DNA of 64,000 nucleotides from IMG/VR virus record IMGVR_UViG_3300025276_004419, positions 1 through 64,000 of that record; one strand, written 5' to 3'. Shown piece after piece: positions 24,537-40,139 of the stretch; the stretch's first letter is position 1, and each line of letters opens with the position of its first letter. The position numbers and the translations under genes are program-made. The notes beneath the pieces are model-generated. The model saw only the letters and a list, made by a program, of their open reading frames with translations, was not told where the DNA came from and ran no database searches. Source of the DNA: a virus.

Positions 24537-24568
24537 TGCCCCTCCTCACGGAGGGGCATTTTTTTTTT
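24537..24568 (+). terminator. intrinsic terminator after fibre 3
   Basis: TGCCCCTCC-TCAC-GGAGGGGCA plus T10. Confidence 0.9.
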
Positions 24569-24580
24569 CCTCTATCTAAC

Positions 24581-24589
24581 ATATGTATA
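24581..24589 (+). promoter_or_regulatory. putative late promoter
   Basis: ATATGTATA after terminator. Confidence 0.6.
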
Positions 24590-24601
24590 CCCGATATTAA
24601 C

Positions 24602-24621
24602 CTGTTGGACAATGAAAACAG
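24602..24621 (+). promoter_or_regulatory. leader hairpin CTGTT-GGACAATGAA-AACAG
   Basis: Near-copy of 19973-19994. Confidence 0.55.
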
Positions 24622-24630
24622 AACTACGCA

Positions 24631-26442: not shown

Positions 26443-26445
26443 ACC

Positions 26446-29400
26446 ATGGCTAAAAACGTTCAAATAGTCCCACCATCAGGTAGTTTAGAATTTACAGATA
26501 GCGCTGCTCCAAACAGTGTTAAAATGGAAATTAACGCTTCTGGAGAAATGATAACCTCAGCAGGGGGGAACACTCTGATGACTATGAGCTCAGGTGAGAT
26601 AGATGTTGATAATAATACAAAACTCCTTATTCCAAAAGGTGATGAAGGCTCAGCTCCAACAGAGGCAGGCGCCTTATTTTTTGATGAAGGGGGTAATGAA
26701 TTAAGAATAGGTGATGGTAGTGGTACTGTTACTGGTGGTGGTGAAAAAGGTGCCAAAGGTAGTACAGGAGCAATTGGTCCAATAGGTCCAATTGGTATAT
26801 CCGTCATTGGTCCCATTGGAGCAACAGGTGCACAAGGTCCTATAGGAAATATAGGTAATATTGGTGTACAAGGTCCTATTGGTCCAATTGGTACATCACT
26901 TATAGGTGCTATTGGTCCTAAAGGTAGTATAGGCCCAATTGGTAACATTGGAATACAAGGCCCTATTGGTCCTACAGGTGCCGGTGGTACAGGAATTATT
27001 GGTCCTATCGGTCCTAAAGGTAGTATAGGTAATATTGGTCCTATAGGTAATATTGGAACTACTGGACCTATTGGTCCTATTGGTAATTCACCTATTGGTC
27101 CTATTGGAAACACAGGAGCACAAGGTCCTATTGGTAATATTGGAATACAAGGTCCTATTGGTCCAATTGGTTTAATTGGTACATCAGTCATAGGTCCAAT
27201 CGGAAATACAGGAGCTCAAGGCCCACGAGGTTTAATAGGCCCATTAGGTCCTAAAGGTAGCATAGGTCCAATTGGTACATCTGTTATTGGCCCAATTGGA
27301 GCAACAGGAGCACAAGGTCCACGAGGTTTAATAGGCCCATTAGGTCCTAAAGGTTCTATTGGTCCAATTGGTGTATCAGTCATAGGTCCTATTGGGGCAA
27401 CAGGAGCACAAGGTCCTATTGGTCTTATAGGTGCTATTGGTCCCAAAGGTACTATTGGCCCAATAGGTACATCAGTCATAGGCCCAATCGGTCCTAAAGG
27501 TACTATAGGTAATATTGGAAATATTGGAAATATAGGTCCACAAGGCCCTATTGGTCCCATAGGAAATTCACCTATTGGTCCTATTGGAAATACTGGAGCA
27601 CAAGGTCCTAGAGGTTTAATTGGAATACAAGGTCCAACAGGACCAATCGGTCCTATTGGTACTTCAGTCATTGGTCCTATAGGGGCAACAGGAGCACAAG
27701 GTCCTAGAGGTTTAATTGGAATACAAGGTCCAACAGGTCCAATTGGTCCAATTGGTACGTCTGTTATTGGCCCTATAGGTAATACAGGAGCACAAGGTCC
27801 TAGAGGTTTGATTGGTATACAAGGTCCTACGGGACCAATTGGTCCAATCGGTACATCGGTTATTGGTCCTATAGGAATCACAGGAGCACAAGGCCCTAGA
27901 GGTTTGATTGGTATACAAGGTCCTACTGGACCAATTGGTCCAATCGGTACATCGGTTATAGGCCCAATAGGTCCTAAAGGTACTATTGGTAATATAGGAA
28001 ATATAGGTCCACAAGGTCCAATCGGCCCTATTGGAACATCAGTCATAGGTCCAATAGGTCCAACAGGAGCACAAGGACCACGAGGTCCAATCGGTATACA
28101 AGGTCCAATCGGTCCTATTGGAACATCAGTCATAGGTCCAATAGGTCCAACAGGAATACAAGGCCCTAGAGGTCCAATCGGTATACAAGGTCCTACTGGA
28201 CCAATTGGTCCTATTGGTACATCAGTTATAGGCCCAATAGGTCCAACAGGAATACAAGGTCCTAGAGGCCCAATCGGTATACAAGGTCCAATCGGTCCTA
28301 TTGGAACATCGGTTATAGGCCCAATCGGGAATACAGGAGCACAAGGACCACGAGGTCCAATTGGTATACAAGGTCCAATAGGTCCTATAGGTCCAATTGG
28401 TACATCAGTCATAGGTCCAATCGGTCCAACAGGAATACAAGGCCCTAGAGGTTTAATAGGAATACAAGGTCCAATCGGTCCAATCGGTCCTATCGGAACA
28501 TCTGTTATAGGCCCGCAAGGTCCAATTGGAAATATTGGTATACAAGGTCCTAGAGGTTTAATTGGTCCAATCGGTCCTAAAGGTACTACAGGAAGTTCAC
28601 CTATTGGTCCTATTGGTCCACGAGGTCCTATTGGTATACAAGGCCCAATTGGTCCTAAAGGTACTACGGGTGCCATTGGTCCTATTGGTAACTCACCTAT
28701 TGGTCCTATTGGTCCACGAGGTCCTATTGGTATACAAGGCCCCATTGGTCCTAAAGGTTCTACCGGCGCTATTGGTCCTATTGGTAACTCACCTATTGGT
28801 CCTATTGGTCCACAAGGTCCTATTGGTCCACAAGGTCCAATCGGTCCTAAAGGTTCTACCGGCGCCATTGGTAATATTGGTAACTCTCCAATTGGCCCAC
28901 AAGGTCCTAGAGGTCCTATTGGTATACAAGGCCCAATTGGTCCTAAAGGTTCTACCGGCGCCATTGGTCCTATTGGTAACTCTCCAATTGGCCCACAAGG
29001 TCCTAGAGGTCCTATTGGTATACAAGGCCCAATTGGTCCTAAAGGTTCTACCGGCGCTATTGGTCCTATTGGTAACTCACCTATTGGTCCCCAAGGTCCT
29101 ATAGGCCCTACAGGAGCACAAGGTCCTAGAGGTTCAATTGGTCCAATCGGTCCTAAAGGTAGTATAGGTATTTCACCTATTGGTCCTATTGGTCCACAAG
29201 GTCCTATTGGTCCAGGTGGAGCTATTGGTGTACAAGGTCCTATTGGTCCACAAGGTCCTATTGGTCCAACGGGTGCTCAAGGTCCTATTGGTCCAGGTTC
29301 AACTGCTATTGGTCCCATAGGTCCAACAGGAGATATAGGTGGAATAGGTCCAATTGGAGCATCTGTTATTGGTCCAATTGGTCCACAAGGTCCTATTGGT

Positions 29401-29670
29401 CCTGGAGGTGCTGAAGGTGCTCAAGGAACAAATGGTACTACAGGTCCTATTGGTCCTGGAGGTCCTTCCGGAAGTTCACCAATTGGTCCACGAGGTCCAA
29501 TCGGTCCTTTAGGTCCTATAGGATCACAAGGTAATATTGGTCCACGAGGTCCTCAGGGTCCTACAGGTGCTGATGGTAACCCAGGAGGTATTACTACAAA
29601 CTTTACTATCACTGCTTTAAACGGAGATTTTGATTTTGTATTCTCAAATGGAACTTTACAGTCCATATAG
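26446..29670 (+). CDS. Pro/Ile-rich collagen-like fibre protein A
   Basis: About 950 aa of GPI/GPK/GPQ/GIQ triplets with recurring GTSVI/GNSPI interruptions. Confidence 0.85.
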   Translation: MAKNVQIVPPSGSLEFTDSAAPNSVKMEINASGEMITSAGGNTLMTMSSGEIDVDNNTKLLIPKGDEGSAPTEAGALFFDEGGNELRIGDGSGTVTGGGEKGAKGSTGAIGPIGPIGISVIGPIGATGAQGPIGNIGNIGVQGPIGPIGTSLIGAIGPKGSIGPIGNIGIQGPIGPTGAGGTGIIGPIGPKGSIGNIGPIGNIGTTGPIGPIGNSPIGPIGNTGAQGPIGNIGIQGPIGPIGLIGTSVIGPIGNTGAQGPRGLIGPLGPKGSIGPIGTSVIGPIGATGAQGPRGLIGPLGPKGSIGPIGVSVIGPIGATGAQGPIGLIGAIGPKGTIGPIGTSVIGPIGPKGTIGNIGNIGNIGPQGPIGPIGNSPIGPIGNTGAQGPRGLIGIQGPTGPIGPIGTSVIGPIGATGAQGPRGLIGIQGPTGPIGPIGTSVIGPIGNTGAQGPRGLIGIQGPTGPIGPIGTSVIGPIGITGAQGPRGLIGIQGPTGPIGPIGTSVIGPIGPKGTIGNIGNIGPQGPIGPIGTSVIGPIGPTGAQGPRGPIGIQGPIGPIGTSVIGPIGPTGIQGPRGPIGIQGPTGPIGPIGTSVIGPIGPTGIQGPRGPIGIQGPIGPIGTSVIGPIGNTGAQGPRGPIGIQGPIGPIGPIGTSVIGPIGPTGIQGPRGLIGIQGPIGPIGPIGTSVIGPQGPIGNIGIQGPRGLIGPIGPKGTTGSSPIGPIGPRGPIGIQGPIGPKGTTGAIGPIGNSPIGPIGPRGPIGIQGPIGPKGSTGAIGPIGNSPIGPIGPQGPIGPQGPIGPKGSTGAIGNIGNSPIGPQGPRGPIGIQGPIGPKGSTGAIGPIGNSPIGPQGPRGPIGIQGPIGPKGSTGAIGPIGNSPIGPQGPIGPTGAQGPRGSIGPIGPKGSIGISPIGPIGPQGPIGPGGAIGVQGPIGPQGPIGPTGAQGPIGPGSTAIGPIGPTGDIGGIGPIGASVIGPIGPQGPIGPGGAEGAQGTNGTTGPIGPGGPSGSSPIGPRGPIGPLGPIGSQGNIGPRGPQGPTGADGNPGGITTNFTITALNGDFDFVFSNGTLQSI
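26740..29589 (+). repeat. coding collagen repeats, including four tandem 96-bp units
   Basis: GGAGCACAAGG begins at 27595, 27691, 27787 and 27883. Confidence 0.9.
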
Positions 29671-29703
29671 AATTAAAACTTGGTATAGCAGGTAAAATAA
29701 TTT

Positions 29704-29712
29704 ATATTTATA
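29704..29712 (+). promoter_or_regulatory. putative late promoter
   Basis: ATATTTATA heading the collagen B/modification operon. Confidence 0.6.
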
Positions 29713-29730
29713 TAAAACAAATAATCATCA

Positions 29731-32700
29731 ATGGCTGACAATGTTCAAATAATCCCCTCCACTGGAGAATTAACTTTTAGTAAGGATGGTGTAGGGTATA
29801 ATTGGGAATTAGTTTATGATAACGCATTGTTAACATGGTCTGATACCCAAGCAGGTGTAATTGCTCTACAATTCTCTAGCGATTCAATGCTAATGGGGGG
29901 TTCCACAGGGTTATTTATAATACCTACCCTCCCTACAACCAGTATAGGAACATTAACTGAAGGTCAAATAGTTTTTAATACTACGACTAAAAGTTTAATA
30001 GTAGGGGGATCAAATGGTAATGTAAGTTTACAAGGTCAACCCGGTGCTACAGGTAATCAAGGTGCTATTGGTCCAATTGGTCCAAACGCACCAACAGGTC
30101 CAATTGGTCCTAAAGGTGTAACTGGTGCTATCGGTCCTATTGGTTTAATAGGCCCAGAAGGTTTAATTGGTAATAAAGGCCCAAATTCACCTGCAGGTCC
30201 TATTGGTCCTAGAGGTCCAGGTGGTGTAATTGGTCCTAATGGACCTGAGGGTTTAATAGGAAATAAAGGACAAAAAGGTAGTAATTCTCCAATAGGTGCT
30301 ATTGGCCCTAAAGGTATTATAGGTGCTATTGGGAACATAGGTAATATAGGCCCTGGTGGTTTAATAGGTGCTAAAGGTCCTATTGGTGTTATAGGCGCTA
30401 TAGGTCCTAAGGGTATAACAGGTGTTATTGGTAATATAGGTCCTGAAGGTTTAATAGGTAATAGAGGTCCAATCGGTCCTGATTCTCCAATAGGTCCAAT
30501 TGGTCCTAAAGGAGTAACAGGTGTAATTGGACCACAAGGTCCTATTGGTCCAAGAGGTGTAATAGGTGCTATTGGTCCTAATTCCCCAATAGGTCCAATT
30601 GGTCCTAAAGGTATAACTGGTATTATTGGACCACAAGGTCCTATAGGACCAAGAGGTGTAATAGGTGCTATTGGTCCTAATTCTCCAATAGGTCCAATTG
30701 GTCCTAAGGGTGTAACTGGTGCTATTGGAAATAATGGTCCTATTGGTCCTAGAGGTCCAGGTGGTGCTATTGGTCCTAACTCACCAATAGGTCCAATCGG
30801 TCCTAGAGGTCCAGGAGGATCTATTGGCCCCATTGGTTTAATAGGACCAGAAGGTTTAATAGGTGCTAAAGGTCCTATTGGTGTTATAGGTGCTATAGGT
30901 CCAAAAGGTATAACAGGTGCAATTGGACCACAAGGTCCTGAAGGTTTAATAGGTTTAATAGGTGCTAAAGGTCCTATCGCAATAACAGGCCCAATTGGCC
31001 CTAAAGGCGTTACTGGCGCTATAGGTCCACAAGGTCCTGAAGGTTTAATAGGTTTAATAGGTGCTAAAGGCCCTATCGCTATAACGGGTCCTATTGGTCC
31101 TAAAGGTGTAACAGGTGCAATTGGACCACAAGGTCCTGAAGGTTTAATTGGTAACCAAGGTGCTAAAGGTCCTAATGCTGTAACAGGCCCAATAGGTCCT
31201 AAAGGTATAACAGGTCCTAGAGGACCTCAAGGTCCTGAAGGTTTAATTGGTAACCAAGGTGCTAAAGGCCCCATAGCTATAACAGGCCCAATCGGTCCTA
31301 GAGGTCCGGGTGGTAGTATAGGTCCTATTGGTCCCGAAGGTTTAATAGGTGCCAAAGGTCCTAACGCTATAGTTGGTCCTATAGGTCCTAAAGGTGTAAC
31401 AGGTGCAATAGGTCCACAAGGTCCTGAAGGTTTAATAGGTAACAGAGGACCCGTAGCTATAACAGGTCCAATTGGTCCTAAAGGAGTAGAAGGTTCTAGA
31501 GGGCCTCAAGGTCCCGAAGGTTTAATTGGTAACCAAGGTGCTAAGGGTCCTATCGCTATAACAGGTCCAATTGGTCCTAAAGGTGTAACAGGTGCAATAG
31601 GTCCACAAGGTCCTGAAGGTTTAATAGGTAATAGAGGTCCAGTAGCTGTAATAGGTCCAATTGGTCCTAAAGGTATAACAGGTCCTAGAGGTCCACAGGG
31701 TCCCGAAGGTTTAATTGGTAACCAAGGTGCTAAGGGTCCTATCGCTATAACAGGTCCAATTGGTCCTAAAGGTGTAACAGGTGCTATTGGGCCTCAAGGT
31801 CCTGAAGGTTTAATTGGTAACCAAGGTGCTAAAGGTCCTAATGCTGTAACAGGTCCTAGGGGTCCTATAGGTAATATAGGCCCAGAAGGTTTAATAGGCC
31901 CCCAAGGTCCTATAGGTCCTCGTGGTATAACAGGTGCTACAGGTGCTATAGGTGCTATTGGTCCTATTGGTCCACAGGGACCAGAAGGTTTAATAGGTAA
32001 CAGAGGTCCAAATGGTAATCAAGGTCCTATAGGCCCAACAGCTCCTATTGGTGCTATAGGTCCACTAGGTCCACAAGGTCCTGAAGGTCTAATAGGTGCT
32101 AGAGGTCCAAATGGTAATCAAGGTCCTATAGGCCCAACAGCTCCTATTGGTGCTATAGGTCCTAGAGGTTCTAGAGGTCCCGAAGGTTTAATAGGTCCTA
32201 TAGGTCCTGGTGGTAATCAAGGTCCTATAGGTCCCATTGGTGCTATAGGTGCTAGAGGTCCTATTGGACCACAAGGTCCTGAGGGTTTAATAGGTCCTAT
32301 AGGTCCTGGTGGTAATCAAGGTCCTATAGGTCCCATTGGTGCTATAGGTGCTAGAGGTCCTATTGGACCACAAGGTCCTGAGGGTTTAATAGGTCCTAGA
32401 GGTCCTGGTGGTAACCAAGGTCCTATAGGACCTATTGGTGCTACAGGTCCTGAAGGTTTAATAGGTCCTAAAGGAAATACTGGAGCTCAAGGTCCACAAG
32501 GTCCTGAAGGTCCTAGAGGTCCTATCGGAGCAACAGCCCCTATTGGTGCTATAGGTCCAGAGGGTTTAATAGGTCCTAAAGGTGCTAGAGGCCCAGAGGG
32601 TCTCATAGGTCCTAGAGGTCCAATTGGTCCTAAAGGTAATACAGGTGCAATAGGTCCAAAAGGTCCTGAAGGTCCTATTGGACCAAAAGGTTCTAGAGGT

Positions 32701-33855
32701 CCAATAGGTAACAAAGGCCCTATTGGTGCCACAGGCCCTATTGGTAGAGAAGGTTTAATAGGTAATAAAGGTGCTAAAGGTCAAAAAGGTCAACCTCGTG
32801 ATTTTGATGGTCCTATAGGTCCTATTGGTCTTAAAGGACCCACTGGTGCTATTGGTGCTATTGGACCACAAGGTCCTATTGGTCCTGCCCGAAATAGCAG
32901 TGCTGCTCCAATAGGTCCTGAAGGTCCTAGAGGTCCTATAGGTGCTACTGGAGCTAATGCTACACCAGCAGGAATTGCTGGTAACCCGGTTATAGATACT
33001 ATTGAAGATGGTGCTGGTTATACCTGGAATCTTGAATTTGTTGATGGATATCTTACAAAAGCGGATCCAGCTTATGAAAACTATCGTTATTATAGTAATG
33101 ATGGTGTTAATGATTATGTAACTGGTGCTTGGAGTGGCCAAACAGGATTAGTTCAAAATGATTGGAGTTTTAGCTTCTGGGTTAGAAATAATGAAGTTGA
33201 TAAAAATAATATGACATTTTGGGATTTTTGTGTTGACCCTGTAGGTTCAGCAAATAATAATAATAGAATATTTTTAAATTATGCTGCTAATTTTAATAGA
33301 TTAATATTTAGAGTTAGAACTAATTCTACAAACTTTGATTGTAATTATGCTTTAAATAGTGGAGGAAGTAATGGTACTATAACAGGTGTAACAAATACTA
33401 CTTCAGGATGGAGAGCAGCCCAAAGGGGTAATACAAATGCTGCAGGTTTTACTCACTTAGCAGGTACTTATGATGCTTCTGAAACAGTAGCTAGCAATGC
33501 ACTTAAATTATATTGGAATGGTTCCTCACTAACTACAGTTACTGTAAATTCAGGTACCCGTACTAATGGGACTTATGATAATTTGACATTATGTACCAAC
33601 ACATCAGGTGTTACAGGTACAGCAAATGCACATATAGACATGGATGAGTTTACTTGGTTTGATAAATCCTTAAGTTCAACAGAAGTAGGAGCCTTATACG
33701 CTAGTGGAGTAATTAAAGCAGCTAAAGAAAGTGGAAATACGGGTGTGGTAAATGCTATAGAGGAAGCAGCTAGTTTTGACCAAAATACCTCAGCTACTGT
33801 TAAAAATGCTAAATGGTCTGCTTCTATTATAGGAGGTACTACTCCAGCATACTAA
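29731..33855 (+). CDS. Pro/Ile-rich collagen-like fibre protein B with C-terminal LamG/ConA-like domain
   Basis: About 985 aa of Gly-X-Y, then WSFSFWV...HLAGTYD...LYWNG...DEFTWFDKSLS..EV..LY (LamG-like). Confidence 0.85.
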   Translation: MADNVQIIPSTGELTFSKDGVGYNWELVYDNALLTWSDTQAGVIALQFSSDSMLMGGSTGLFIIPTLPTTSIGTLTEGQIVFNTTTKSLIVGGSNGNVSLQGQPGATGNQGAIGPIGPNAPTGPIGPKGVTGAIGPIGLIGPEGLIGNKGPNSPAGPIGPRGPGGVIGPNGPEGLIGNKGQKGSNSPIGAIGPKGIIGAIGNIGNIGPGGLIGAKGPIGVIGAIGPKGITGVIGNIGPEGLIGNRGPIGPDSPIGPIGPKGVTGVIGPQGPIGPRGVIGAIGPNSPIGPIGPKGITGIIGPQGPIGPRGVIGAIGPNSPIGPIGPKGVTGAIGNNGPIGPRGPGGAIGPNSPIGPIGPRGPGGSIGPIGLIGPEGLIGAKGPIGVIGAIGPKGITGAIGPQGPEGLIGLIGAKGPIAITGPIGPKGVTGAIGPQGPEGLIGLIGAKGPIAITGPIGPKGVTGAIGPQGPEGLIGNQGAKGPNAVTGPIGPKGITGPRGPQGPEGLIGNQGAKGPIAITGPIGPRGPGGSIGPIGPEGLIGAKGPNAIVGPIGPKGVTGAIGPQGPEGLIGNRGPVAITGPIGPKGVEGSRGPQGPEGLIGNQGAKGPIAITGPIGPKGVTGAIGPQGPEGLIGNRGPVAVIGPIGPKGITGPRGPQGPEGLIGNQGAKGPIAITGPIGPKGVTGAIGPQGPEGLIGNQGAKGPNAVTGPRGPIGNIGPEGLIGPQGPIGPRGITGATGAIGAIGPIGPQGPEGLIGNRGPNGNQGPIGPTAPIGAIGPLGPQGPEGLIGARGPNGNQGPIGPTAPIGAIGPRGSRGPEGLIGPIGPGGNQGPIGPIGAIGARGPIGPQGPEGLIGPIGPGGNQGPIGPIGAIGARGPIGPQGPEGLIGPRGPGGNQGPIGPIGATGPEGLIGPKGNTGAQGPQGPEGPRGPIGATAPIGAIGPEGLIGPKGARGPEGLIGPRGPIGPKGNTGAIGPKGPEGPIGPKGSRGPIGNKGPIGATGPIGREGLIGNKGAKGQKGQPRDFDGPIGPIGLKGPTGAIGAIGPQGPIGPARNSSAAPIGPEGPRGPIGATGANATPAGIAGNPVIDTIEDGAGYTWNLEFVDGYLTKADPAYENYRYYSNDGVNDYVTGAWSGQTGLVQNDWSFSFWVRNNEVDKNNMTFWDFCVDPVGSANNNNRIFLNYAANFNRLIFRVRTNSTNFDCNYALNSGGSNGTITGVTNTTSGWRAAQRGNTNAAGFTHLAGTYDASETVASNALKLYWNGSSLTTVTVNSGTRTNGTYDNLTLCTNTSGVTGTANAHIDMDEFTWFDKSLSSTEVGALYASGVIKAAKESGNTGVVNAIEEAASFDQNTSATVKNAKWSASIIGGTTPAY
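30034..32988 (+). repeat. coding collagen repeats
   Basis: GPI/GPK/GPE/GLI triplets. Confidence 0.9.
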
Positions 33856-33865: not shown

Positions 33866-34108
33866 ATGAATACTAAATATTATTTAATAGAAGCCTCAGA
33901 ATATCCAAATTATGAAAATTCTTTGGATCAAGGAGTTGCTTGGAAATTAGATAGGAGTCAATGCCTCATAGAAGTAGCAGTTGATTTTACAGTTTACCCT
34001 TATGTAAATAGTTGGGATAATTCAGGAGATTTTAAACTCTGGAGAAATCAAGATGCAAATTGGCCTGATTGGGAAACACAGGAACAACACGATGGTGAGT
34101 ATAATTAA
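33866..34108 (+). CDS. hypothetical protein
   Basis: 80-aa ORF between the fibre and modification genes. Confidence 0.5.
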   Translation: MNTKYYLIEASEYPNYENSLDQGVAWKLDRSQCLIEVAVDFTVYPYVNSWDNSGDFKLWRNQDANWPDWETQEQHDGEYN

Positions 34109-34124: not shown

Positions 34125-36455
34125 ATGAAATTAGTTATATATGCGGGGTATTATTCCCCACCCTACTCACCTGAAACTATAGATGAAACTGGTTTAGGAG
34201 GTACAGAACAATGTATTATAAATTTAGCTAAAACCCTTAAATCCCAAAATCCAATTTGGGATATTTGGGTCGTTGGTGGAGTGGTTTATGGAGATTACGA
34301 TGGTATAATGTATAGACCTACACAAGACTTTAAAAATGAAGTAAAATCTGTAGATACTATTATTGGGGTTTCGTACATTCATTACATTAAAGAATTTGAG
34401 GGTATCGATTATACCGACTCAATACTTTGGGTGCATAATACCGAATATTATACGTGGTGGAATGGCCAAGATATTGCCAACCATCGTGAACTTTTATTAG
34501 ATTCTAAATTAAAATCTATAATTTGCTTAACAGAATGGCATAAAAACATATTTATAGAACAATTCCCAGAAACCAAAGATAAAATTCAAGTTATAGGTAA
34601 TGGAGTAGATACTTCTAAATTCCAGATAGGAGATAAAAACCCAAATCAATACATTTATACTTCACACGCTGAACGAGGTTTAAGTCAAATACTAACAGAA
34701 TGGGATAGTATTTTATTCAAAAATCCCCTTGCGGAATTAAAAATATCTACTCCTCAATATGGTTTAGAATATTTTAATCTTTATTACAGAGATTTAGTAG
34801 ATAACTTGGATAACGTAGAATTCCTTGGTACATTACCGCAACATGAGCTATATAAACTAATGGCCCAAAGTACTTATTGGTATTATCCTTCATCATATCA
34901 GGAAACCTTTTGTATTACGGCTTTAGAAATGTTAGGTCATGGGGTTCAACCTATTACTTGGGAATGGGGAGGATTAAAGGAAACATTAAACAATTTTAAT
35001 ACCCTAAATAAGGACGAATTCCTAGATTGGGAAGAAGTAAATCAATACCTAAATCAATGTAGTTGGAAATCCAGAGTAAATAACCACTGGGTCCCATTAC
35101 TAACAAATACAAGTATGAAATTAGAAACATTTTATGTTTTAGCTCTAAATGAGACAGCCGAAATTAGAGAAAAATGCGAAAACTTACACTTACCATCCAA
35201 AACCCCTTATTGGATTAAACCTGGGTTCGATGCTCGTAAAATGGAGCAAGAAGATTGGGATAAATTTGGTGTAGATAAACACCCACGTTGGAATATTGAA
35301 GGTAGTAATCCTTGGTGGAAACGTGATGTAATGGAAGGTGAATTAGGTTGTGGCTTATCTCATGTAGATGCTTGGGTAGATTCATATCGTAGAGGATTAG
35401 AAGTAACACTAATTTTAGAAGAGGATTTTCACGAAGAAATGCCTGTAGATTGGAAACAAATTGATAAATTGTTTAAAAAAGGTTATGACCTTATTTATTT
35501 AGGACGTAATGCTTTAGAGGCAGCACTAGAAAAACCAATTAAAGATGTTAAAGGTTGGGTTGAACCCGATTACACATATAATTCTCACGCATATATCTTA
35601 TCTAAAAGGGGTGTACAAATTTTAGTAGAAGAGTATATGGAGCAATACAAGAAAGAAATGTTTGCTTTTGATGAATTTCTTACTCTTACTTTTGGTATGA
35701 CCCATCGTCAGGATATCCTTCAAGAATATGAGGGTAAAACTCGATTAAAAGCAGCAGCCCCTATTCGAGACCACTATATACAAAAAGATAGCCCAGGATC
35801 AACATTTTATATTAAACCAACCCAACCATCCTTTGGGGACTTGCTGGGAAAGCCACCCGGAGTTAGAGATAGCTCCAATTGGGAAATATGGTGTCAAAAA
35901 TATATTAACCCATTTTTACTTAAGGGTCAAAGTAGGTTAATGATAGATGAAATAGCACCTAATGTCATAGAATTCCCTTTATTTACAGAAGAATTTTGTA
36001 AAGAAGTTATAAGTTTAGCAGAAGATAAAGAATGGGTTACGGATAGACATGAGTTTTACCCTACAACAGACCAAACTATGGAAAGTTTAGGAATGCAAGA
36101 TATTTATCAAAGAGTATTAGAACAATTTGTATATCCTATATGGATACAATTTTGGGAACTTACAGGTGAACCTTGGAAAACGTTAACGAGCGAAAATTTT
36201 ATAGCTAAGTATAATACCAAAAATCAAGGTAGTTTAGACTTGCATCACGACAGCTCTGCCATTACATTAAATGTAAGATTAAATAATGAATTTAAAGGTG
36301 GGGGTACATTCCTACCAAAATACAAAACTACAGTCCAACCACGTAAAACTGGGTATGCTATGGCACACCCGGGAAATATAACTCATTTACACGGGGGTAG
36401 ACCAGTAGAAACAGGAACACGTTATATATTAGTATCATTTACAGCAAACAATTAA
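34125..36455 (+). CDS. three-domain fusion: GT4-like glycosyltransferase + GT25 (COLGALT-like) + PLOD-like 2OG-Fe(II) lysyl hydroxylase
   Basis: aa1-325 GT-B (GLGGTE, YTS..ERGL, YPSSYQETFCITALE). From aa331: GELGCGLSH, LILEED, DLIYLGR, EPDYTYNSHAYILS. From aa586: FPLFTE..C, PTTD, HHDSS.ITLN, GGGT, HPG..THLHGG.P...GTRYILVSF. Confidence 0.85.
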   Translation: MKLVIYAGYYSPPYSPETIDETGLGGTEQCIINLAKTLKSQNPIWDIWVVGGVVYGDYDGIMYRPTQDFKNEVKSVDTIIGVSYIHYIKEFEGIDYTDSILWVHNTEYYTWWNGQDIANHRELLLDSKLKSIICLTEWHKNIFIEQFPETKDKIQVIGNGVDTSKFQIGDKNPNQYIYTSHAERGLSQILTEWDSILFKNPLAELKISTPQYGLEYFNLYYRDLVDNLDNVEFLGTLPQHELYKLMAQSTYWYYPSSYQETFCITALEMLGHGVQPITWEWGGLKETLNNFNTLNKDEFLDWEEVNQYLNQCSWKSRVNNHWVPLLTNTSMKLETFYVLALNETAEIREKCENLHLPSKTPYWIKPGFDARKMEQEDWDKFGVDKHPRWNIEGSNPWWKRDVMEGELGCGLSHVDAWVDSYRRGLEVTLILEEDFHEEMPVDWKQIDKLFKKGYDLIYLGRNALEAALEKPIKDVKGWVEPDYTYNSHAYILSKRGVQILVEEYMEQYKKEMFAFDEFLTLTFGMTHRQDILQEYEGKTRLKAAAPIRDHYIQKDSPGSTFYIKPTQPSFGDLLGKPPGVRDSSNWEIWCQKYINPFLLKGQSRLMIDEIAPNVIEFPLFTEEFCKEVISLAEDKEWVTDRHEFYPTTDQTMESLGMQDIYQRVLEQFVYPIWIQFWELTGEPWKTLTSENFIAKYNTKNQGSLDLHHDSSAITLNVRLNNEFKGGGTFLPKYKTTVQPRKTGYAMAHPGNITHLHGGRPVETGTRYILVSFTANN

Positions 36456-36459: not shown

Positions 36460-37074
36460 ATGAACACACTTTATTCATTTCCACTAGACTTTGACAAATA
36501 TGTTAATCAAAGCAATTATTATTGGTTTGAGGAAGGTTTTACAGCCGAAGAACTAAAAACCCTCGAACAACAAGTACAAGAAATTCCATCACAAGCTGGT
36601 GTAACAGAAACCGGTAATCAAGCTGATGGTGAGGGTTTAGAATCACGTAATTCTACGATTAAATGGGTTCCATTTAGTGAAGAGACTAAGTGGATCTACG
36701 ACAAAATTGGTATGTTAGCCAAAACTGCTAATGATGAGATGTTCCATTTTGATATCCACAATATGCCAGAAAATATCCAGTACACTGAGTATTATGGTAC
36801 TAATAAAGGTCATTATGATTGGCATATGGATATTGGTACTGAAGGACATATGAAATTTCGTAAAATATCAGTTACAGTACAACTTTCAGATTCTACCGAA
36901 TATGAAGGTGGAGATCTACAGATCTGGCCTGGTGGTCAAGCACCTTATACTGCTCCACGTGGTAAAGGTAATGTTGTAATTTTCCCATCTTATCTGATGC
37001 ATCGTGTTACACCTGTAACCGAGGGTACTAGAAAATCATTTGTATTATGGTTAGGTGGTGGTCATTTTAAATAA
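36460..37074 (+). CDS. 2OG-Fe(II) oxygenase (P4Hc/PKHD-like)
   Basis: HYDWHMD, RKISVTVQLSD..EYEGGDL, IFPSYLMHRVTPVT.GTRKS. Confidence 0.88.
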   Translation: MNTLYSFPLDFDKYVNQSNYYWFEEGFTAEELKTLEQQVQEIPSQAGVTETGNQADGEGLESRNSTIKWVPFSEETKWIYDKIGMLAKTANDEMFHFDIHNMPENIQYTEYYGTNKGHYDWHMDIGTEGHMKFRKISVTVQLSDSTEYEGGDLQIWPGGQAPYTAPRGKGNVVIFPSYLMHRVTPVTEGTRKSFVLWLGGGHFK

Positions 37075-37823
37075 TGAAAATAGCATTATTAATTAGTGGT
37101 CAACCACGTAGACATAGAGAAGGCTATCAAGAATTAAAAAAATGGTTTCTAGATAAGTATGATATAGATGTTTATTTACACGCTTGGAAAGATACCGAAT
37201 TCAAGAAATATGATTTTTTTAATGAAGGCAAGGTGCAAAAAACCTATGAAGTTAATGATGATTTATATCAAAATTTACTTGATTGGTATCAACCTAAAGG
37301 CTTTTTATTTGAACCATCAATCCAATTCGATGCTTCGGGTTTAAAAGGTCCTAATAACCAACGACTAAACTCCCAAATGGGTATGTGGATGTCTACATAC
37401 AGGTCATTTCAGTTATGTGAGGAATCAGGTATAAAATACGATTTAGTATTTAAAACTCGCTATGATTTACTATTTACACACTATGCTGCGAATAACTGTG
37501 ATTTATTAACAAATATTACACAATTAGATCCTGATAGATTACATTTTTGGGAATACGCCCCACATTGGAATATGGATTGGCAAATCAACGACCAGTTAGC
37601 AATAGGTAAACCAGAATTAGTAAAACAATATTGTAGCGTGTTCCCTGAAATGCTTTTTAATATATTTCACAACCCAGAATATCGAGATAATAATGATGAT
37701 ATTTTTATAAATGAAACTTTAGTACTACAACACATTAAAAATTTAAATATCCCATTATCACCTATGTATCATGGATTTGATGGTTCTCGAGGTATAGATT
37801 GTGGGTGTCATATAATGAGATAA
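37074..37823 (+). CDS. putative glycosyltransferase/glyco-cluster protein
   Basis: MKIALLISGQPR, YDLVFKTRYD, NDQLAIG; pattern typical of viral glycosylation clusters. Confidence 0.5.
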   Translation: MKIALLISGQPRRHREGYQELKKWFLDKYDIDVYLHAWKDTEFKKYDFFNEGKVQKTYEVNDDLYQNLLDWYQPKGFLFEPSIQFDASGLKGPNNQRLNSQMGMWMSTYRSFQLCEESGIKYDLVFKTRYDLLFTHYAANNCDLLTNITQLDPDRLHFWEYAPHWNMDWQINDQLAIGKPELVKQYCSVFPEMLFNIFHNPEYRDNNDDIFINETLVLQHIKNLNIPLSPMYHGFDGSRGIDCGCHIMR

Positions 37824-37826: not shown

Positions 37827-40139
37827 ATGAAAGAACCAAAAATTTTTGGACATGGTCCTTATATAGGAACAACAGGTTATAACAACCATACACGTGATTT
37901 TTTTAGGGGTCTATCTAACCACCACCCATTAAAATTTCGTAACTTTACTGTAGGTAGTAGTTGGGAAGGTATGAATAAAGAACCACATAATGGGGAATCT
38001 TACCTCCTTGATATAGATAAAAATATACTCCACCAACAAACATACTACACCTCAGAGGGTGATATGGTTGATGGTGAAATATACCCTAATAATGGAGAAA
38101 ATTTTAACCATAATGTAAATTTAATTTTGATGGAAACTAACCATCATTATTTTTTTCACAATTATAAAGGACCTAAAATAGCTTATAATGTTTGGGAATC
38201 TACGAAACAACCGGAAGCATTTTTTAATAAATTATTAGAATTTGATCAAATCTGGGTCCCATCACAATGGCAGGCAGATTGTACTATTGAACAAGGTGCT
38301 GATCCTGATAAAGTAAAAGTAGTCCCTGAGGGGGTAGATACAGAAACATTTTTTCCTGAAGATCCTCAAACTACATTAGACTATGTAGATGGTCGTTTTA
38401 AATTTATTCACTTTGGAAGGTGGGATTATAGAAAATCTACAAAAGAAATTATTAAAACTTTCTTAAAAGAATTTAAACCCGAAGAACCCGTAGATTTAAT
38501 TTTATCTATTGATAATATGTGGGGCAAAGATATGGATAGTTTTGAAACAACTGAAGAAAGACTAAAACATTATGGTTTTACGGACGAACGTTTAAAAATT
38601 AAACATTTTCCATCAAGAGAAGATTATATTACGTATTTAAAAAATGGTCATGTATTTTTGTCTTGTGCTCGTAGTGAAGGTTGGAATTTACCTTTAATTG
38701 AAGCCATGGCTTGTGGTACCCCATCTATATACTCAGCGGATTCAGCTCAAATGCAATTTGCATCAGGTAAGGGTCTACCAGTAAAAATATTAGGCGAAAA
38801 ACCTGCAACATCTAATGATTATGGTCGCTATACTATGAGTGATCTTCCAGGAAATTACCCAGAACCCGATTTCGAAGATTTAGCTATCGTAATGCGTGAT
38901 GCATTTGAAAATTATACTGACTATAAAAAACGTGCTATAGAAGAAGCAAAGTTGATTCATCGTGATTTTAATTGGAAAAATGTAGCTCAAATTGGTAGTA
39001 ATACTATTAAAGAATTTATGGATAATTATGTAGCCCCTGCTATTAAACCTAATACTATTAATGTTTCGTATTTAGAGGGTCCTAAAGTAGAAATTTTAGG
39101 GGACAACCCTGAAGAATATACAATAGAATTTATTAACGGGGATACTAATGAAGTAGTATTTAGTGATAAAATTACTAATGGAATGTGGACCACGTGTAAC
39201 AAAAAATATTATATTCCTTGGATTATAAAAGTTAATGGAGAGATAGTAAATAAATTTAGTTTAAAAGATAAAAAGGTTTTAATAGGTTTAGATTCAAATT
39301 CAATAGGAGACACTATAGCATGGACTCCATATGCTGTTGAATTTGCTAAAAAGCATAATTGTCAAGTCCTTTTATCTACCCACCATAACTCATGGTTTGA
39401 GGGCGTTGATGCTTATAAAGATATTAAATTTATTACCCCTGGGGATTTTGAACCTTGCCACGCTATGTATAGAATTGGATGGTTTAAAGATGATGAGGGT
39501 TTTTGGAAAGATTTTAATAAACACCCTAACCAAGTTAATTTATACCCATTACAACAAACTGCTGCTGATATTTTAGGTTTAGAATTTAAAGAATTAAATC
39601 ATGGGTTAGTATTTAATAAAAATGCAACCCCAATTAAGTCTAAATACGTAGTTATAGGACCAGAATCAACAGCAGGGTGTAAAGAGTGGCCTAGACAAAA
39701 TTGGAACGTTTTAGCTAAATTACTAAATCAACAAGGATATACAGTAATAACTTTAACTAAAAACCCACTTAAAATCCCAGGTACGATTAATGTTTACAAT
39801 AAACCTTTTGATGTTTTAGCTAATTATTTACTTAATGCTGATTTATTTATAGGTTTAAGCTCCGGATTATCTTGGTTTAATTGGGGGTTAGGTAAAAAAA
39901 CAGTAATGATGAATGGTTTTACCTCTAAAGAACATGAATTCCAAACTAAAGTTACTCGTATACGTGAGGAAAGTGTTTGTAATTCTTGTTGGGTTAATCC
40001 AAATTTTAAATTTGATGCTGGGGATTGGGATTGGTGTCCTATATGGAAAGGAACAGATAAACAGCATACGTGTATGAAATCCGTCTCACCAACTCAAGTT
40101 TTTAAACAAGTTAAACAAATTTTAAATAGTAAAAAATAA
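37827..40139 (+). CDS. GT4-like glycosyltransferase fused to TibC/AAH-type (BAHT) protein O-heptosyltransferase-like domain
   Basis: N-half GT4 (GRWDYRK, RSEGWNLPLIEAMACGTP). C-half GDTIAWTPYA..F..KH.C, FIGLSSGLSW, CNSCW...FD..DWDWCP...TDKQHTC, matching the recalled TibC iron-finger Cys pattern. Confidence 0.85.
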   Translation: MKEPKIFGHGPYIGTTGYNNHTRDFFRGLSNHHPLKFRNFTVGSSWEGMNKEPHNGESYLLDIDKNILHQQTYYTSEGDMVDGEIYPNNGENFNHNVNLILMETNHHYFFHNYKGPKIAYNVWESTKQPEAFFNKLLEFDQIWVPSQWQADCTIEQGADPDKVKVVPEGVDTETFFPEDPQTTLDYVDGRFKFIHFGRWDYRKSTKEIIKTFLKEFKPEEPVDLILSIDNMWGKDMDSFETTEERLKHYGFTDERLKIKHFPSREDYITYLKNGHVFLSCARSEGWNLPLIEAMACGTPSIYSADSAQMQFASGKGLPVKILGEKPATSNDYGRYTMSDLPGNYPEPDFEDLAIVMRDAFENYTDYKKRAIEEAKLIHRDFNWKNVAQIGSNTIKEFMDNYVAPAIKPNTINVSYLEGPKVEILGDNPEEYTIEFINGDTNEVVFSDKITNGMWTTCNKKYYIPWIIKVNGEIVNKFSLKDKKVLIGLDSNSIGDTIAWTPYAVEFAKKHNCQVLLSTHHNSWFEGVDAYKDIKFITPGDFEPCHAMYRIGWFKDDEGFWKDFNKHPNQVNLYPLQQTAADILGLEFKELNHGLVFNKNATPIKSKYVVIGPESTAGCKEWPRQNWNVLAKLLNQQGYTVITLTKNPLKIPGTINVYNKPFDVLANYLLNADLFIGLSSGLSWFNWGLGKKTVMMNGFTSKEHEFQTKVTRIREESVCNSCWVNPNFKFDAGDWDWCPIWKGTDKQHTCMKSVSPTQVFKQVKQILNSKK

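What the first reader, a model, noticed from the sequence alone, without database searches (positions are those of the whole stretch)
34125..36455. Single polypeptide GT4-GT25-lysyl hydroxylase could make a complete hydroxylysine disaccharide
Seen: the C-terminal domain reads W.QKYI...PNVIEFPLFTEEFC...PTTD...FIAKY....Q.SL..HHDSSAITLN...GGGT...HPGNITHLHGGRP..TGTRYILVSF. This closely tracks the recalled PLOD1 C-terminus (W.EKYI..PDVYWFPIFTE.AC..PTID..FVVRY....Q.SL.PHHDASTFTIN..GGG..HPGRLTHYHEGLP..GTRYIAVSF), with the HxD...H iron triad and the 2OG-binding Arg intact. The middle domain (GELGCGLSH, LILEED, DLIYLGR, VEPDYTYNSHAYILS) tracks recalled COLGALT1 (GELGCFLSH, VFEDD, DLIYVGR, VEADYSYWTLAYVIS). 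Established: GT25 enzymes are inverting and GT4 enzymes retaining; collagen carries Glc-alpha1,2-Gal-beta-O-Hyl. Inference: hydroxylation, beta-glycosylation and alpha-glycosylation are fused in one enzyme, an architecture unlike animal PLOD3.
Basis: partly seen in the sequence, partly recalled or inferred. Interest (0 to 1): 0.88.

Follow-up and report, generated by a model that had tools for sequence, protein, structure and literature searches.

The report
Phage three-in-one collagen lysine modifying enzyme
A marine-type bacteriophage encodes, right behind its collagen-like tail-fibre genes, one protein that joins a lysyl hydroxylase of the animal collagen type to two sugar-adding enzymes, so phage fibres are probably decorated like animal collagen, which has not been described for viruses of bacteria.

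Summary
ORF 34125-36455 (+) encodes 776 aa with three folded domains. They are a retaining GT-B/GT4 glycosyltransferase (aa 1-325), a COLGALT1-like GT25 domain (aa 331-565) and a PLOD/L230-type lysyl hydroxylase (aa 586-776). The catalytic residues of all three are intact and conserved in relatives.

The window is the structural module of a 130-kb myovirus. The gene lies directly after two collagen-like fibre genes that carry 54 Lys in their Gly-X-Y tracts. All 54 are in the Y position, which is the lysyl hydroxylase site.

This arrangement recurs in more than 100 metagenomic protein clusters and in nearly all related loci where upstream DNA is available. Pooled over 20 collagens, Lys is 692 times in Y and never in X. 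A split form also exists, with a GT4 gene overlapping a GT25-LH gene.

Most likely the enzyme hydroxylates fibre Lys, the GT25 domain puts a sugar on hydroxylysine, and the GT4 domain adds a further sugar. The identity of the sugars and the disaccharide itself are inferred, not shown.

The "single chain" idea is not unprecedented. L230-type proteins fuse GT25 to a full PLOD. The phage form replaces the PLOD GT-A/accessory part with an N-terminal GT4.

An unchecked first-reader note of this scan (e1-5740097) reports a GT25-LH fusion in another genome. I found no paper on a phage lysyl hydroxylase.

The parts
34125..36455 (+). Whole gene, 776 aa: a GT4 - GT25 - lysyl hydroxylase fusion
   Evidence: Open frame. 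More than 110 full-length homologue clusters at 41-99% identity. AF2 model with pLDDT 86.6.
34125..35099 (+). Domain 1, aa 1-325: retaining GT-B glycosyltransferase of GT4 type. It carries a GG..E loop (G25, G26, E28), R184, and EX7E = E260...E268 (nt 34902-34904 and 34926-34928).
   Evidence: Pfam Glycos_transf_1 at 31.8 bits, above the 26.4 cut-off. Foldseek hits to MshA, PimA and the tll1591 alpha-1,2-GlcT at TM 0.6-0.67. G26, E28, R184, E260 and E268 are kept in 25/25 representatives and G25 in 24/25.
35115..35819 (+). Domain 2, aa 331-565: GT25 GT-A domain like the catalytic GT2/CGT domain of COLGALT1. It has the UDP helix GELGC (G405, G408, C409), metal motif E432-E433-D434 (nt 35418-35426), and base/amine-anchor D516-E517 (nt 35670-35675).
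   Evidence: phmmer against COLGALT1 at about 2e-14 with these motifs aligned. Residue roles come from PMC12003778 and PMC12987934. Conservation: E432 55/55, D434 53/55, D516 53/55, E517 50/55. Foldseek 9evk_B at rmsd 3.1 A.
35820..35879 (+). Flexible linker, aa 566-585
   Evidence: pLDDT below 50 at aa 566-576.
35880..36452 (+). Domain 3, aa 586-776: PLOD/L230-type lysyl hydroxylase (2OG/Fe(II) DSBH). Fe triad H707, D709, H756 (nt 36243-36245, 36249-36251, 36390-36392). 2OG Arg R766 (nt 36420-36422). I752 sits at the position of the L230 dimer residue L873.
   Evidence: LH3 at 9e-26 and L230 at 2e-22. Foldseek L230 at TM 0.87. H707 and D709 135/135, H756 134/135, R766 131/135. L230 residue roles from PMC9614988.
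26446..29670 (+). Collagen-like fibre protein E (1074 aa), a likely substrate. It has 16 G-x-K-G and 0 G-K-x-G; Pro is 161 times in X and once in Y.
29731..33855 (+). Collagen-like fibre protein F (1374 aa), a likely substrate. It has 38 G-x-K-G and 0 G-K-x-G; Pro is 142 times in X and once in Y. A globular C-terminal domain follows the collagen tract.
36460..37074 (+). Second 2OG-Fe(II) oxygenase (204 aa, P4H/PKHD-like). It is a conserved downstream partner with an unknown target.
   Evidence: Pfam 2OG-FeII_Oxy_3 at 1.3e-15. NCBIfam PRK05467 type. Present downstream in 29 loci.
37074..37823 (+). Conserved 249-aa protein of unknown function (DUF7796-like), present in 1-3 paralogues in related loci.
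   Evidence: No Pfam hit. Atlas clusters are Uroviricota and some carry DUF7796. Synteny.
37827..40139 (+). GT4 + TibC/Aah-type protein O-heptosyltransferase fusion (770 aa). It belongs to the same fibre-modification block and probably serves the Ser-rich fibres.
   Evidence: TIGR04414 at 234 bits, above the cut-off of 200, over aa 411-765. Pfam GT4/GT9/TibC_1st.

Best explanation
The gene encodes a compact three-enzyme protein that modifies lysines of the phage's own collagen-like tail-fibre proteins in the infected cell, before the chains fold into triple helices.

Step 1: the C-terminal PLOD/L230-type domain uses Fe(II), 2-oxoglutarate and O2 to turn Y-position Lys (Gly-X-Lys-Gly) into 5-hydroxylysine.

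Step 2: the central GT25 domain is an inverting, Mn-dependent GT-A enzyme like the catalytic domain of COLGALT1. It transfers a hexose from a UDP-sugar to the new hydroxyl group.

Step 3: the N-terminal GT4 domain is a retaining GT-B enzyme. It adds a further, alpha-linked sugar and so plays the part that the non-homologous retaining GT-A domain of LH3/R699 plays in animals and mimivirus.

What is shown here: the three domains, their intact and conserved catalytic residues, and the conserved position next to Lys-in-Y collagen genes.

What is inferred: the substrates, the order of the steps, the identity of the sugars and the linkage.
For: Domains and folds. LH3 matches at 9e-26, L230 at 2e-22 and COLGALT1 at about 5e-14. 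The AF2 model has pLDDT 86.6. Foldseek finds L230 at TM 0.87, COLGALT1 at rmsd 3.1 A and retaining GT4 enzymes.

Catalytic residues.
- H707/D709/H756/R766 align with LH3 H667/D669/H719/R729.
- E432/D434 align with the COLGALT1 Mn ligands E435/D437.
- D516 aligns with the catalytic base D522, and E517 with E523, which anchors the Hyl epsilon-amine.
- The GT4 EX7E motif is E260/E268.
- All of these are kept in 50 or more of 55 GT25 domains, 131 or more of 135 LH domains and 25 of 25 GT4 domains, counted over 50%-identity representatives. They are invariant or nearly so in the 35-sequence family alignment.

Context. The window is a myovirus structural module with terminase, portal, capsid and sheath genes. 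The gene follows two collagen genes with 54 Lys in G-x-K-G and none in G-K-x-G. In IMG/VR loci with upstream DNA, the enzyme follows collagen genes with 4-133 G-x-K-G and no G-K-x-G. This also holds for members only 36-49% identical (L028, L036, L037). Pooled, Lys is 692 in Y and 0 in X.

Functional link of GT4. In L033 and L034 a separate 336-aa GT4 gene (39% identical to aa 1-298) overlaps a GT25-LH gene (41% identical) by 4 nt. Long relatives carry a retaining PLOD/R699-type GT-A domain in the same chain as GT25 and LH. A retaining second transferase therefore recurs with this pair.

Precedent. L230 hydroxylates and glycosylates viral collagen, and co-expression of L230 with the mimiviral collagen L71 in E. 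coli yielded Hyl-containing L71 (PMC9614988 and PMC9546862).
Against: - There is no biochemical evidence for any step.
- Basic residues favour Y in collagens in general. Arg is also 338 in Y against 8 in X, so the Lys position is compatible with the model but is not proof.
- Two residues of the COLGALT1 acceptor cleft differ: W495 is Asn 486 and K470 is Asn 462. Acceptor recognition may therefore differ.
- The GT25-like domain of L230 uses UDP-Glc, so Gal cannot be assumed.
- GT4-LH forms without GT25 exist, for example L037. GT4 may therefore act without a GT25 product.
- The collagen beside the split form (L034) has no Lys in its tract.
- One homologue (L035) has no collagen gene within its 7.7-kb contig.
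- The interdomain arrangement in the model is not reliable (pTM 0.49).
Confidence: 0.6

Rival explanations
1. The hydroxylase and the GT25 domain make a single sugar on hydroxylysine, as mimivirus L230 does. The GT4 domain glycosylates a different acceptor. Candidates are Ser/Thr of the Ser-rich fibres, a hydroxyproline made by the neighbouring oxygenase, or hydroxylysine directly in competition with GT25. In this reading no Hyl-linked disaccharide is formed.
For: L230 yields only Glc-Hyl. GT4-LH variants without GT25 occur in an otherwise similar locus. Four Ser/Thr-rich collagen-like fibres and a second oxygenase lie in the same block. Nothing in the sequence fixes the GT4 acceptor.
Against: The Ser-rich fibres already have a dedicated GT4-TibC heptosyltransferase fusion downstream. 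GT4 is fused to GT25-LH, or translationally coupled to it, across 23 divergent representatives and one split form. Long relatives also pair GT25 and LH with a retaining transferase whose mimiviral homologue R699 extends Gal-Hyl.
Confidence: 0.22
2. The oxygenase domain does not act on collagen lysine. It hydroxylates another residue (Pro, Asn, Asp or Arg) or another protein, and the transferases glycosylate that product.
For: Substrate specificity of 2OG oxygenases cannot be read from the Fe/2OG residues alone. The phage branch is separate from the animal PLOD + L230-type clade in the LH-domain tree (deep nodes weakly supported). The collagen next to the split form lacks Lys.
Against: The only solved relatives found at E below 0.01 for this domain are LH3 and L230. 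Foldseek gives TM 0.87 to L230. GT25 keeps E517, the counterpart of the residue that anchors the Hyl amine in COLGALT1. Every adjacent Pro- or Lys-type collagen examined has at least 4 Lys in Y.
Confidence: 0.08
3. The protein modifies the host envelope (LPS or LOS-type glycans, as the Pfam GT25 name suggests) or another non-fibre target during infection. Its position beside the fibre genes would then be incidental.
For: Pfam calls GT25 an 'LPS biosynthesis protein', and source databases name the homologues as cell-wall or LPS glycosyltransferases. One homologue lies among RNA ligase genes rather than fibre genes.
Against: The Pfam GT25 match covers only the N-terminal half of the model, whereas the match to COLGALT1 runs through the DE base motif. 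A lysyl hydroxylase domain has no role in LPS synthesis. The synteny collagen - enzyme - oxygenase - DUF7796 - GT4/TibC - sheath holds in 28 of 31 IMG/VR loci.
Confidence: 0.04

Closest known systems
Acanthamoeba polyphaga mimivirus L230 (bifunctional collagen lysyl hydroxylase / hydroxylysyl glucosyltransferase; PDB 6AX6)
   Same: It is a viral enzyme. A GLT25D1-like transferase domain with an E-D-D motif lies N-terminal to a PLOD-type LH domain in one chain, and it acts on the virus's own Gly-X-Lys collagen-like proteins (PMC9614988). The LH domains are 32% identical with TM 0.87. The hydrophobic dimer position is kept (L873 = I752).
   Different: L230 infects a eukaryote's cell, has 895 aa and has no GT4 domain. 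The L230-type long relatives found here carry a full PLOD3-like GT-A + accessory body between GT25 and LH. The phage protein has only a 20-aa linker there and an extra N-terminal GT-B domain. In the LH tree the phage group lies outside the PLOD + L230-type clade (weak deep support).
Human LH3/PLOD3 (GT-A glucosyltransferase + accessory + LH; PDB 6FXK)
   Same: The C-terminal LH domain aligns at E 9e-26 with an identical Fe triad and 2OG Arg. It is also a multifunctional chain that combines hydroxylation with a retaining glycosyl transfer.
   Different: The PLOD GT-A and accessory domains are absent from the phage protein. The phage retaining transferase is a non-homologous GT-B (GT4). In animals GT25 is a separate protein.
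Human COLGALT1/GLT25D1, catalytic C-terminal GT25 domain (PDB 9EVJ, 9U7H, 8ZGC)
   Same: The match is about 2e-14 over 155 residues. The UDP helix GELGC, the metal ligands E..D, the catalytic base Asp and the Hyl-amine-anchoring Glu are conserved.
   Different: The non-catalytic N-terminal GT domain is missing. The middle residue of the EDD motif is Glu. Acceptor-cleft residues W495 and K470 are Asn in this protein, although 14 and 13 of 55 related domains keep W and K. The donor sugar is unknown.
Mimivirus R699 / LH3 GT domain (galactosylhydroxylysyl glucosyltransferase)
   Same: The proposed role is the same: a retaining transferase that extends the Hyl-linked sugar (PMC9546862).
   Different: There is no homology. 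R699 and LH3-GT are GT-A enzymes, whereas the phage domain is a GT-B with EX7E.
Retaining GT4 glycosyltransferases (MshA, PimA, alpha-1,2-glucosyltransferase tll1591)
   Same: Shared features are the GT-B fold (TM 0.6-0.67), the EX7E motif, the Gly-rich N-terminal loop and the Pfam Glycos_transf_1 match.
   Different: Identity is only 11-16%. Those enzymes act on small molecules or lipids, and none is fused to GT25 or to an oxygenase.

Membership tests
Collagen lysyl hydroxylase domain (PLOD/L230 type, 2OG-Fe(II) DSBH) | His-x-Asp...His iron triad | tested here: met
   H707, D709 and H756 align with LH3 H667, D669 and H719. They are kept in 135/135, 135/135 and 134/135 representatives.
Collagen lysyl hydroxylase domain (PLOD/L230 type, 2OG-Fe(II) DSBH) | 2-oxoglutarate-binding Arg ten residues after the distal His | tested here: met
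   R766 equals LH3 R729 and L230 R887. It is kept in 131/135 representatives.
Collagen lysyl hydroxylase domain (PLOD/L230 type, 2OG-Fe(II) DSBH) | LH-specific fold and sequence, rather than another 2OG oxygenase family | tested here: met
   For this region, only LH3 and L230 are found in PDB at E below 0.01. Foldseek L230 gives TM 0.87 and rmsd 2.1 A over 201 columns.
Collagen lysyl hydroxylase domain (PLOD/L230 type, 2OG-Fe(II) DSBH) | Hydroxylation of peptidyl Lys in X-Lys-Gly | not testable with these tools
   The only evidence is context: neighbouring collagens have all tract Lys in G-x-K-G.
Full-length PLOD architecture (GT-A + accessory + LH) | N-terminal PLOD GT-A and accessory domains | tested here: not met
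   No sequence match to LH3 residues before 505. The N-terminal domains are GT-B and GT25. The protein is therefore a carrier of the LH domain, not a PLOD orthologue.
GT25, COLGALT-type hydroxylysine glycosyltransferase | GT-A domain with the E-D-D type metal site and the GELGC UDP-binding helix | tested here: met
   E432-E433-D434 and G405/G408/C409 align with COLGALT1 E435-D436-D437 and G408/G411/C412. E432 is kept in 55/55 and D434 in 53/55.
GT25, COLGALT-type hydroxylysine glycosyltransferase | 'DE' motif: catalytic base Asp plus the Glu that holds the Hyl epsilon-amine | tested here: met
   D516-E517 align with D522-E523. They are kept in 53/55 and 50/55 representatives.
GT25, COLGALT-type hydroxylysine glycosyltransferase | Acceptor cleft residues K470, Y494, W495 | tested here: not met
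   Y485 is kept, but W495 is replaced by N486 and K470 by N462. Among related domains, W occurs in 14/55 and K in 13/55.
GT25, COLGALT-type hydroxylysine glycosyltransferase | Pfam PF01755 gathering score | tested here: inconclusive
   This protein scores 23.6 bits against a cut-off of 24, matched over the N-terminal half of the model only. Relatives score 44-57 bits.
GT25, COLGALT-type hydroxylysine glycosyltransferase | Transfer of Gal from UDP-Gal to 5-hydroxylysine | not testable with these tools
   The L230 GT25-like domain uses UDP-Glc, so the donor cannot be inferred.
GT4 (retaining GT-B glycosyltransferases) | Two-Rossmann GT-B fold | tested here: met
   Foldseek hits to MshA, PimA, PimB' and tll1591 at TM 0.57-0.67.
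GT4 (retaining GT-B glycosyltransferases) | EX7E motif and Pfam Glycos_transf_1 above the cut-off | tested here: met
   E260 and E268 lie in ETFCITALE and are kept in 25/25 representatives. PF00534 scores 31.8 bits, above 26.4.
GT4 (retaining GT-B glycosyltransferases) | Retention of anomeric configuration; the acceptor | not testable with these tools
   This needs product analysis.
L230-type bifunctional viral enzyme | GT25-like domain N-terminal to LH in one chain, encoded by a virus with Gly-X-Lys collagens | tested here: met
L230-type bifunctional viral enzyme | PLOD-like GT/accessory region between GT25 and LH | tested here: not met
   Long relatives P0240 and P0266 have it, matching LH3 residues 15-713 and R699. 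P0001 has a 20-aa linker instead.

The most novel reading that the evidence does not exclude
Bacteriophage tail fibres carry collagen-type glycosylated hydroxylysine. It is made by a compact single-chain hydroxylase plus two transferases, in which a GT-B (GT4) domain has taken the place of the PLOD GT-A glucosyltransferase. This machinery is widespread in aquatic phages. It forms a large, unnamed sister radiation to animal PLODs, so the collagen lysine-modification pathway would not be an animal or giant-virus speciality. The glycan may tune fibre stability or host recognition.
Probability: 0.45. Interest if true: 0.8.

Novelty: new variant of a known kind. Interest (0 to 1): 0.7.

Why it matters
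Hydroxylysine-linked glycosylation is treated as a hallmark of animal collagen, with mimivirus as the one known outlier. Here the same chemistry is encoded in a virus of bacteria, in the tail-fibre module, and in over a hundred related metagenomic protein clusters.

If confirmed, it would:
- Give the first case of Hyl glycosylation in a bacterial system.
- Add a new kind of phage fibre decoration that may affect adsorption or resistance to proteases.
- Show a clear case of non-homologous replacement, with a GT-B domain standing in for the PLOD GT-A.
- Widen the known range of LH-domain proteins.
- Offer a practical tool. A single bacterial-cytoplasm-compatible polypeptide that installs Hyl and sugars could help make modified recombinant collagen in E. 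coli, a use already proposed for L230 and R699 (PMC9546862).

Tried and rejected
1. The phage GenBank collection gave no DNA match and no full-length protein match, only domain-wise hits at 25-34% identity.
2. A word-indexed search on the LH region returned only the same family. It did not reach named PLODs, so the exhaustive search was used instead.
3. A search for short stand-alone GT25 relatives gave 11 hits, mostly fragments, and one named MAG protein at 34% identity. A phylogeny against bacterial Lic2A/LgtB/Lex2-type GT25 could therefore not be done.
4. The LH-domain tree is only the quick version, because the careful search did not finish. Deep nodes are weak, so I draw no conclusion on the number of fusion events or on any donor.
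5. Promoter and terminator scans were no better than shuffled sequence and say nothing about operon structure.
6. I looked for a GalE-type epimerase as a hint to UDP-Gal. The only epimerase in the genome is of the ADP-heptose 6-epimerase type, which points to the TibC-like enzyme and not to this one.
7. The 80-aa ORF at 33866-34108 is not conserved (found only in L007) and is not counted as part of the system.
8. Reverse-strand ORFs inside the collagen genes, such as 27216..28964, were rejected as by-products of the Gly-X-Y repeat.
9. I considered and rejected the idea that this is two genes or a frameshift artefact. The frame is continuous and full length in more than 110 clusters.
10. No complex prediction was run, because the report does not rest on a binding claim.
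Full report
1. WHAT IS THERE

The ORF at 34125-36455 on the + strand is open and encodes 776 aa.

Pfam gives Glycos_transf_1 over aa 226-310 (31.8 bits, cut-off 26.4) and Glyco_transf_4 over aa 103-164. It gives Glyco_transf_25 over aa 336-435 at 23.6 bits, just under the cut-off of 24, and a weak OGFOD2-like match over aa 604-676.

Against all PDB sequences, aa 589-773 match human LH3/PLOD3 at E 9e-26 and the mimivirus L230 hydroxylase domain at 2e-22. Residues 335-524 match the catalytic domain of COLGALT1 at about 5e-14.

An AlphaFold2 model built on 35 homologues has mean pLDDT 86.6. Its only disordered stretch is aa 566-576, which separates the GT25 and LH domains. pTM is 0.49, so the relative placement of the domains is not reliable.

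Foldseek against PDB gives a match for each domain:
- C-terminal domain: L230, TM 0.87, rmsd 2.1 A, 32% identity.
- Middle domain: COLGALT1 chain 9evk_B, 232 columns, rmsd 3.1 A, 24% identity.
- N-terminal domain: a series of retaining GT-B enzymes of family GT4 (MshA, PimA, PimB', the alpha-1,2-glucosyltransferase tll1591), TM 0.57-0.67.

2. CATALYTIC RESIDUES

Lysyl hydroxylase domain. H707, D709 and H756 align with the LH3 iron ligands H667, D669 and H719. R766 aligns with the 2OG-binding R729 (L230 roles in PMC9614988). I752 occupies the position of the L230 dimer residue L873.

GT25 domain. Two recent COLGALT1 structure papers define the functional residues. E435 and D437 of an unusual E-D-D motif bind Mn2+, and G408/G411/C412 line the uridine pocket (PMC12003778). 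D522 is the catalytic base and E523 potentially anchors the epsilon-amine of hydroxylysine. K470, Y494 and W495 line the acceptor cleft (PMC12987934).

In the phage protein these positions are E432-E433-D434, G405/G408/C409, D516-E517, N462, Y485 and N486. Metal site, UDP helix, base and amine anchor are kept. Two cleft residues differ.

GT4 domain. It carries the family's EX7E motif (E260...E268), a GG..E loop and R184.

Conservation over 50%-identity representatives from the exhaustive search:

| Domain | Residue | Kept in |
|---|---|---|
| LH | H707 | 135/135 |
| LH | D709 | 135/135 |
| LH | H756 | 134/135 |
| LH | R766 | 131/135 |
| GT25 | E432 | 55/55 |
| GT25 | D434 | 53/55 |
| GT25 | D516 | 53/55 |
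| GT25 | E517 | 50/55 |
| GT4 | G26, E28, R184, E260, E268 | 25/25 each |

All three active sites are thus under purifying selection.

3. SETTING

The window is one strand of a phage structural module. It encodes a large terminase, portal, major capsid protein, head-tail adaptor, tail sheath and a baseplate protein, followed by a DnaB-type helicase and ribonucleotide reductase. The whole record is a 130,026-bp IMG/VR virus contig, about 80% complete. The closest capsid protein among isolates is that of Flavobacterium phage vB_FspM_immuto at 56% identity. That phage gave no hit to the enzyme.

Between the neck and sheath genes lie six collagen-like fibre genes. Four are Ser/Thr-rich (GSSGTSGAD repeats) and have no Lys or Pro in the tracts. 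The two genes directly upstream of the enzyme, 26446-29670 and 29731-33855, are Gly-Pro-Ile-rich.

These two carry 16 and 38 Lys in G-x-K-G and none in G-K-x-G. Pro is 161 and 142 times in X and once each in Y.

Downstream follow three conserved genes and then the sheath gene:
- A 204-aa P4H/PKHD-like 2OG oxygenase.
- A 249-aa DUF7796-like protein.
- A 770-aa GT4 + TibC/Aah-type O-heptosyltransferase fusion (TIGR04414, 234 bits against a cut-off of 200).

4. RELATIVES

The word-indexed search found 254 proteins. More than 110 of the listed 90%-identity clusters are full length at 41-99% identity and lie on contigs of up to 178 kb. None is named as a hydroxylase.

In IMG/VR, 31 loci carry a homologue. 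Wherever upstream DNA is present, the enzyme directly follows one to three Pro-type collagen genes with 4-133 G-x-K-G and no G-K-x-G. This includes L028, whose enzyme is only 38% identical. The order enzyme - oxygenase - DUF7796 - GT4/TibC - sheath holds in 28 of 31 loci.

Two more divergent homologues show the same association. P0143 follows a 1674-aa collagen with 115 G-x-K-G. P0140 follows a collagen with 65.

Pooled over 20 such collagens and 5069 triplets, Lys is 692 times in Y and never in X. Arg shows nearly the same bias (338 against 8), as expected from general triple-helix preferences. The Lys position therefore fits a hydroxylase substrate but does not prove one.

There are two exceptions. 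The collagen next to the split form has no Lys in its tract. One homologue lies among RNA ligase genes on a short contig.

5. WIDER FAMILY AND ARCHITECTURE

The exhaustive search with the LH domain found 2294 representative clusters at E <= 1e-3 and 72 at E <= 1e-30.

Architectures of the best 150:

| Architecture | Count |
|---|---|
| LH domain only, with none of the three profiled partner domains | 85 |
| GT25-LH | 38 |
| GT4-GT25-LH | 23 |
| GT4-LH | 2 |
| LH-LH | 2 |

An animal PLOD (Mesocestoides corti) appears only at about rank 115. Nearly everything else is unnamed metagenomic sequence.

The long GT25-LH forms (P0240, P0266; about 880 aa) are a COLGALT-like GT25 domain fused to a complete PLOD3-like body, meaning GT-A, accessory and LH domains. 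They match LH3 residues 15-713 at E 1e-110 and mimivirus R699 at 7e-74. This is the L230 type of architecture.

In a quick LH-domain tree these long forms group with animal PLODs (support 93). The phage protein groups with short GT25-LH and LH-only forms (support 97). Three-domain proteins fall in at least two groups. Deep nodes are weak, so I draw no conclusion on the order of events.

A split form exists. In L033 and L034 a 336-aa GT4 gene is 39% identical to aa 1-298 (E 7e-59). It overlaps by 4 nt a 432-aa GT25-LH gene that is 41% identical to aa 331-772. This fusion/fission pattern ties the GT4 domain functionally to the other two.

6. HOW IT MOST LIKELY WORKS

The best-supported reading is a three-step modification of the phage's own collagen-like fibre chains in the infected cell.

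- Step 1. The LH domain hydroxylates Y-position Lys.
- Step 2. The GT25 domain adds a sugar to the 5-hydroxyl by an inverting mechanism. It keeps the base Asp and the Glu that holds the Hyl amine in COLGALT1.
- Step 3. The retaining GT4 domain adds a further sugar.

The parallel with the long forms supports step 3. There, a retaining GT-A domain of the LH3/R699 type sits in the same chain as GT25 and LH. R699 is a proven Gal-Hyl glucosyltransferase (PMC9546862). The phage protein has a retaining GT-B domain instead, which looks like non-homologous replacement of one function.

That the chemistry can run in a bacterial cytoplasm follows from L230, whose co-expression with the mimiviral collagen L71 in E. 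coli gave Hyl-containing L71.

My rough odds:

| Claim | Probability |
|---|---|
| Domain architecture with active sites | about 0.97 |
| Lys of the neighbouring fibres as substrate | about 0.75 |
| GT25 glycosylates Hyl | about 0.65 |
| GT4 extends it to a disaccharide | about 0.45 |
| Product is exactly Glc-alpha1,2-Gal-beta-Hyl | about 0.1-0.15 |

The last figure is low because the L230 GT25-like domain uses UDP-Glc and GT4 donors are diverse. The GT4-LH variants without GT25 keep open the possibility that GT4 works on Hyl directly or on another acceptor.

7. COMPARISON WITH WHAT IS KNOWN, AND NOVELTY

The closest known enzyme is mimivirus L230, not PLOD3. It shares the GT25-then-LH order and the viral collagen substrates.

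The protein is not a PLOD orthologue, because the PLOD GT-A and accessory domains are absent. It is not of the L230 type in its middle region either.

Three features are new:
- The N-terminal GT4 domain.
- The compact linker in place of the PLOD body.
- The host range: a tailed phage, with the gene inside the tail-fibre block.

Full-text searches found no paper combining phage with lysyl hydroxylase, procollagen-lysine or hydroxylysine on tail fibres. The 2010 survey of peptide-modifying dioxygenases predicted hydroxylation of bacterial collagen-like proteins, but by other oxygenase families followed by sulfation (PMC2938197).

Other first-reader notes of this scan describe the same block in this genome and a GT25-LH fusion in another genome (e1-5740097). 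They are unchecked notes and were not used as evidence.

I class the finding as a new variant of a known kind, with interest 0.7.

Noticed in passing
window 37827-40139; G000:C1 about 105800-107380 (L032 726-1499 and 1489-2304): The GT4 + TibC/Aah-type O-heptosyltransferase fusion scores 234 bits on TIGR04414 (cut-off 200). Elsewhere the genome carries an HldE-kinase-like gene and an ADP-heptose 6-epimerase-like gene. The phage may make ADP-heptose itself to heptosylate the four Ser-rich fibres.
   Followed up: partly
window 36460-37074: A P4H/PKHD-like 2OG oxygenase always follows the enzyme. In the window's collagens Pro is almost only in X (303 in X, 2 in Y), which is not the classical collagen P4H site. 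In L026, L030 and L036 Pro is frequent in Y. Its target is open.
   Followed up: partly
P0240, P0266 (metagenomic proteins of about 880 aa): These are single chains with a COLGALT-like GT25 domain fused to a complete PLOD3-like GT-A + accessory + LH body. They match LH3 at E 1e-110 and R699 at 7e-74. All three animal-type collagen Lys-modifying domains are thus in one protein.
   Followed up: partly
L037 3759-5348 (P0140); also P0156: These are natural GT4-LH proteins with no room for a GT25 domain. L037 otherwise has a similar locus: a collagen with 65 G-x-K-G, DUF6445, a 2OG oxygenase and GT4/GT9.
   Followed up: partly
L033 8994-11299 and L034 2944-5249: This is the split form: a GT4 gene overlaps a GT25-LH gene by 4 nt, on a TARA scaffold that also encodes HSP70, a family-B polymerase exonuclease domain, an ATP-grasp protein and a lipocalin. 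The kind of virus is unclear. The adjacent collagen (GPQGPAG type) has no Lys.
   Followed up: partly
window 37074-37823 and related loci: A conserved protein of about 250 aa, DUF7796-like, is present in one to three tandem paralogues between the oxygenase and the GT4/TibC gene. It has no recognisable function.
   Followed up: partly
window 17314-33855, both strands: Long ORFs on the minus strand and in other frames, such as 27216..28964 (-) at 582 aa, and the GC rise to 0.40-0.45 are by-products of the Gly-X-Y repeats and not genes.
   Followed up: no
window 33866-34108: The 80-aa ORF between fibre F and the enzyme is found in only one related locus (L007), so it is probably not a conserved part of the system.
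   Followed up: yes
L036 5641-6189; L037 3178-3759: In the divergent loci a DUF6445 protein (182-193 aa) sits directly before the enzyme. It was not examined further.
   Followed up: no
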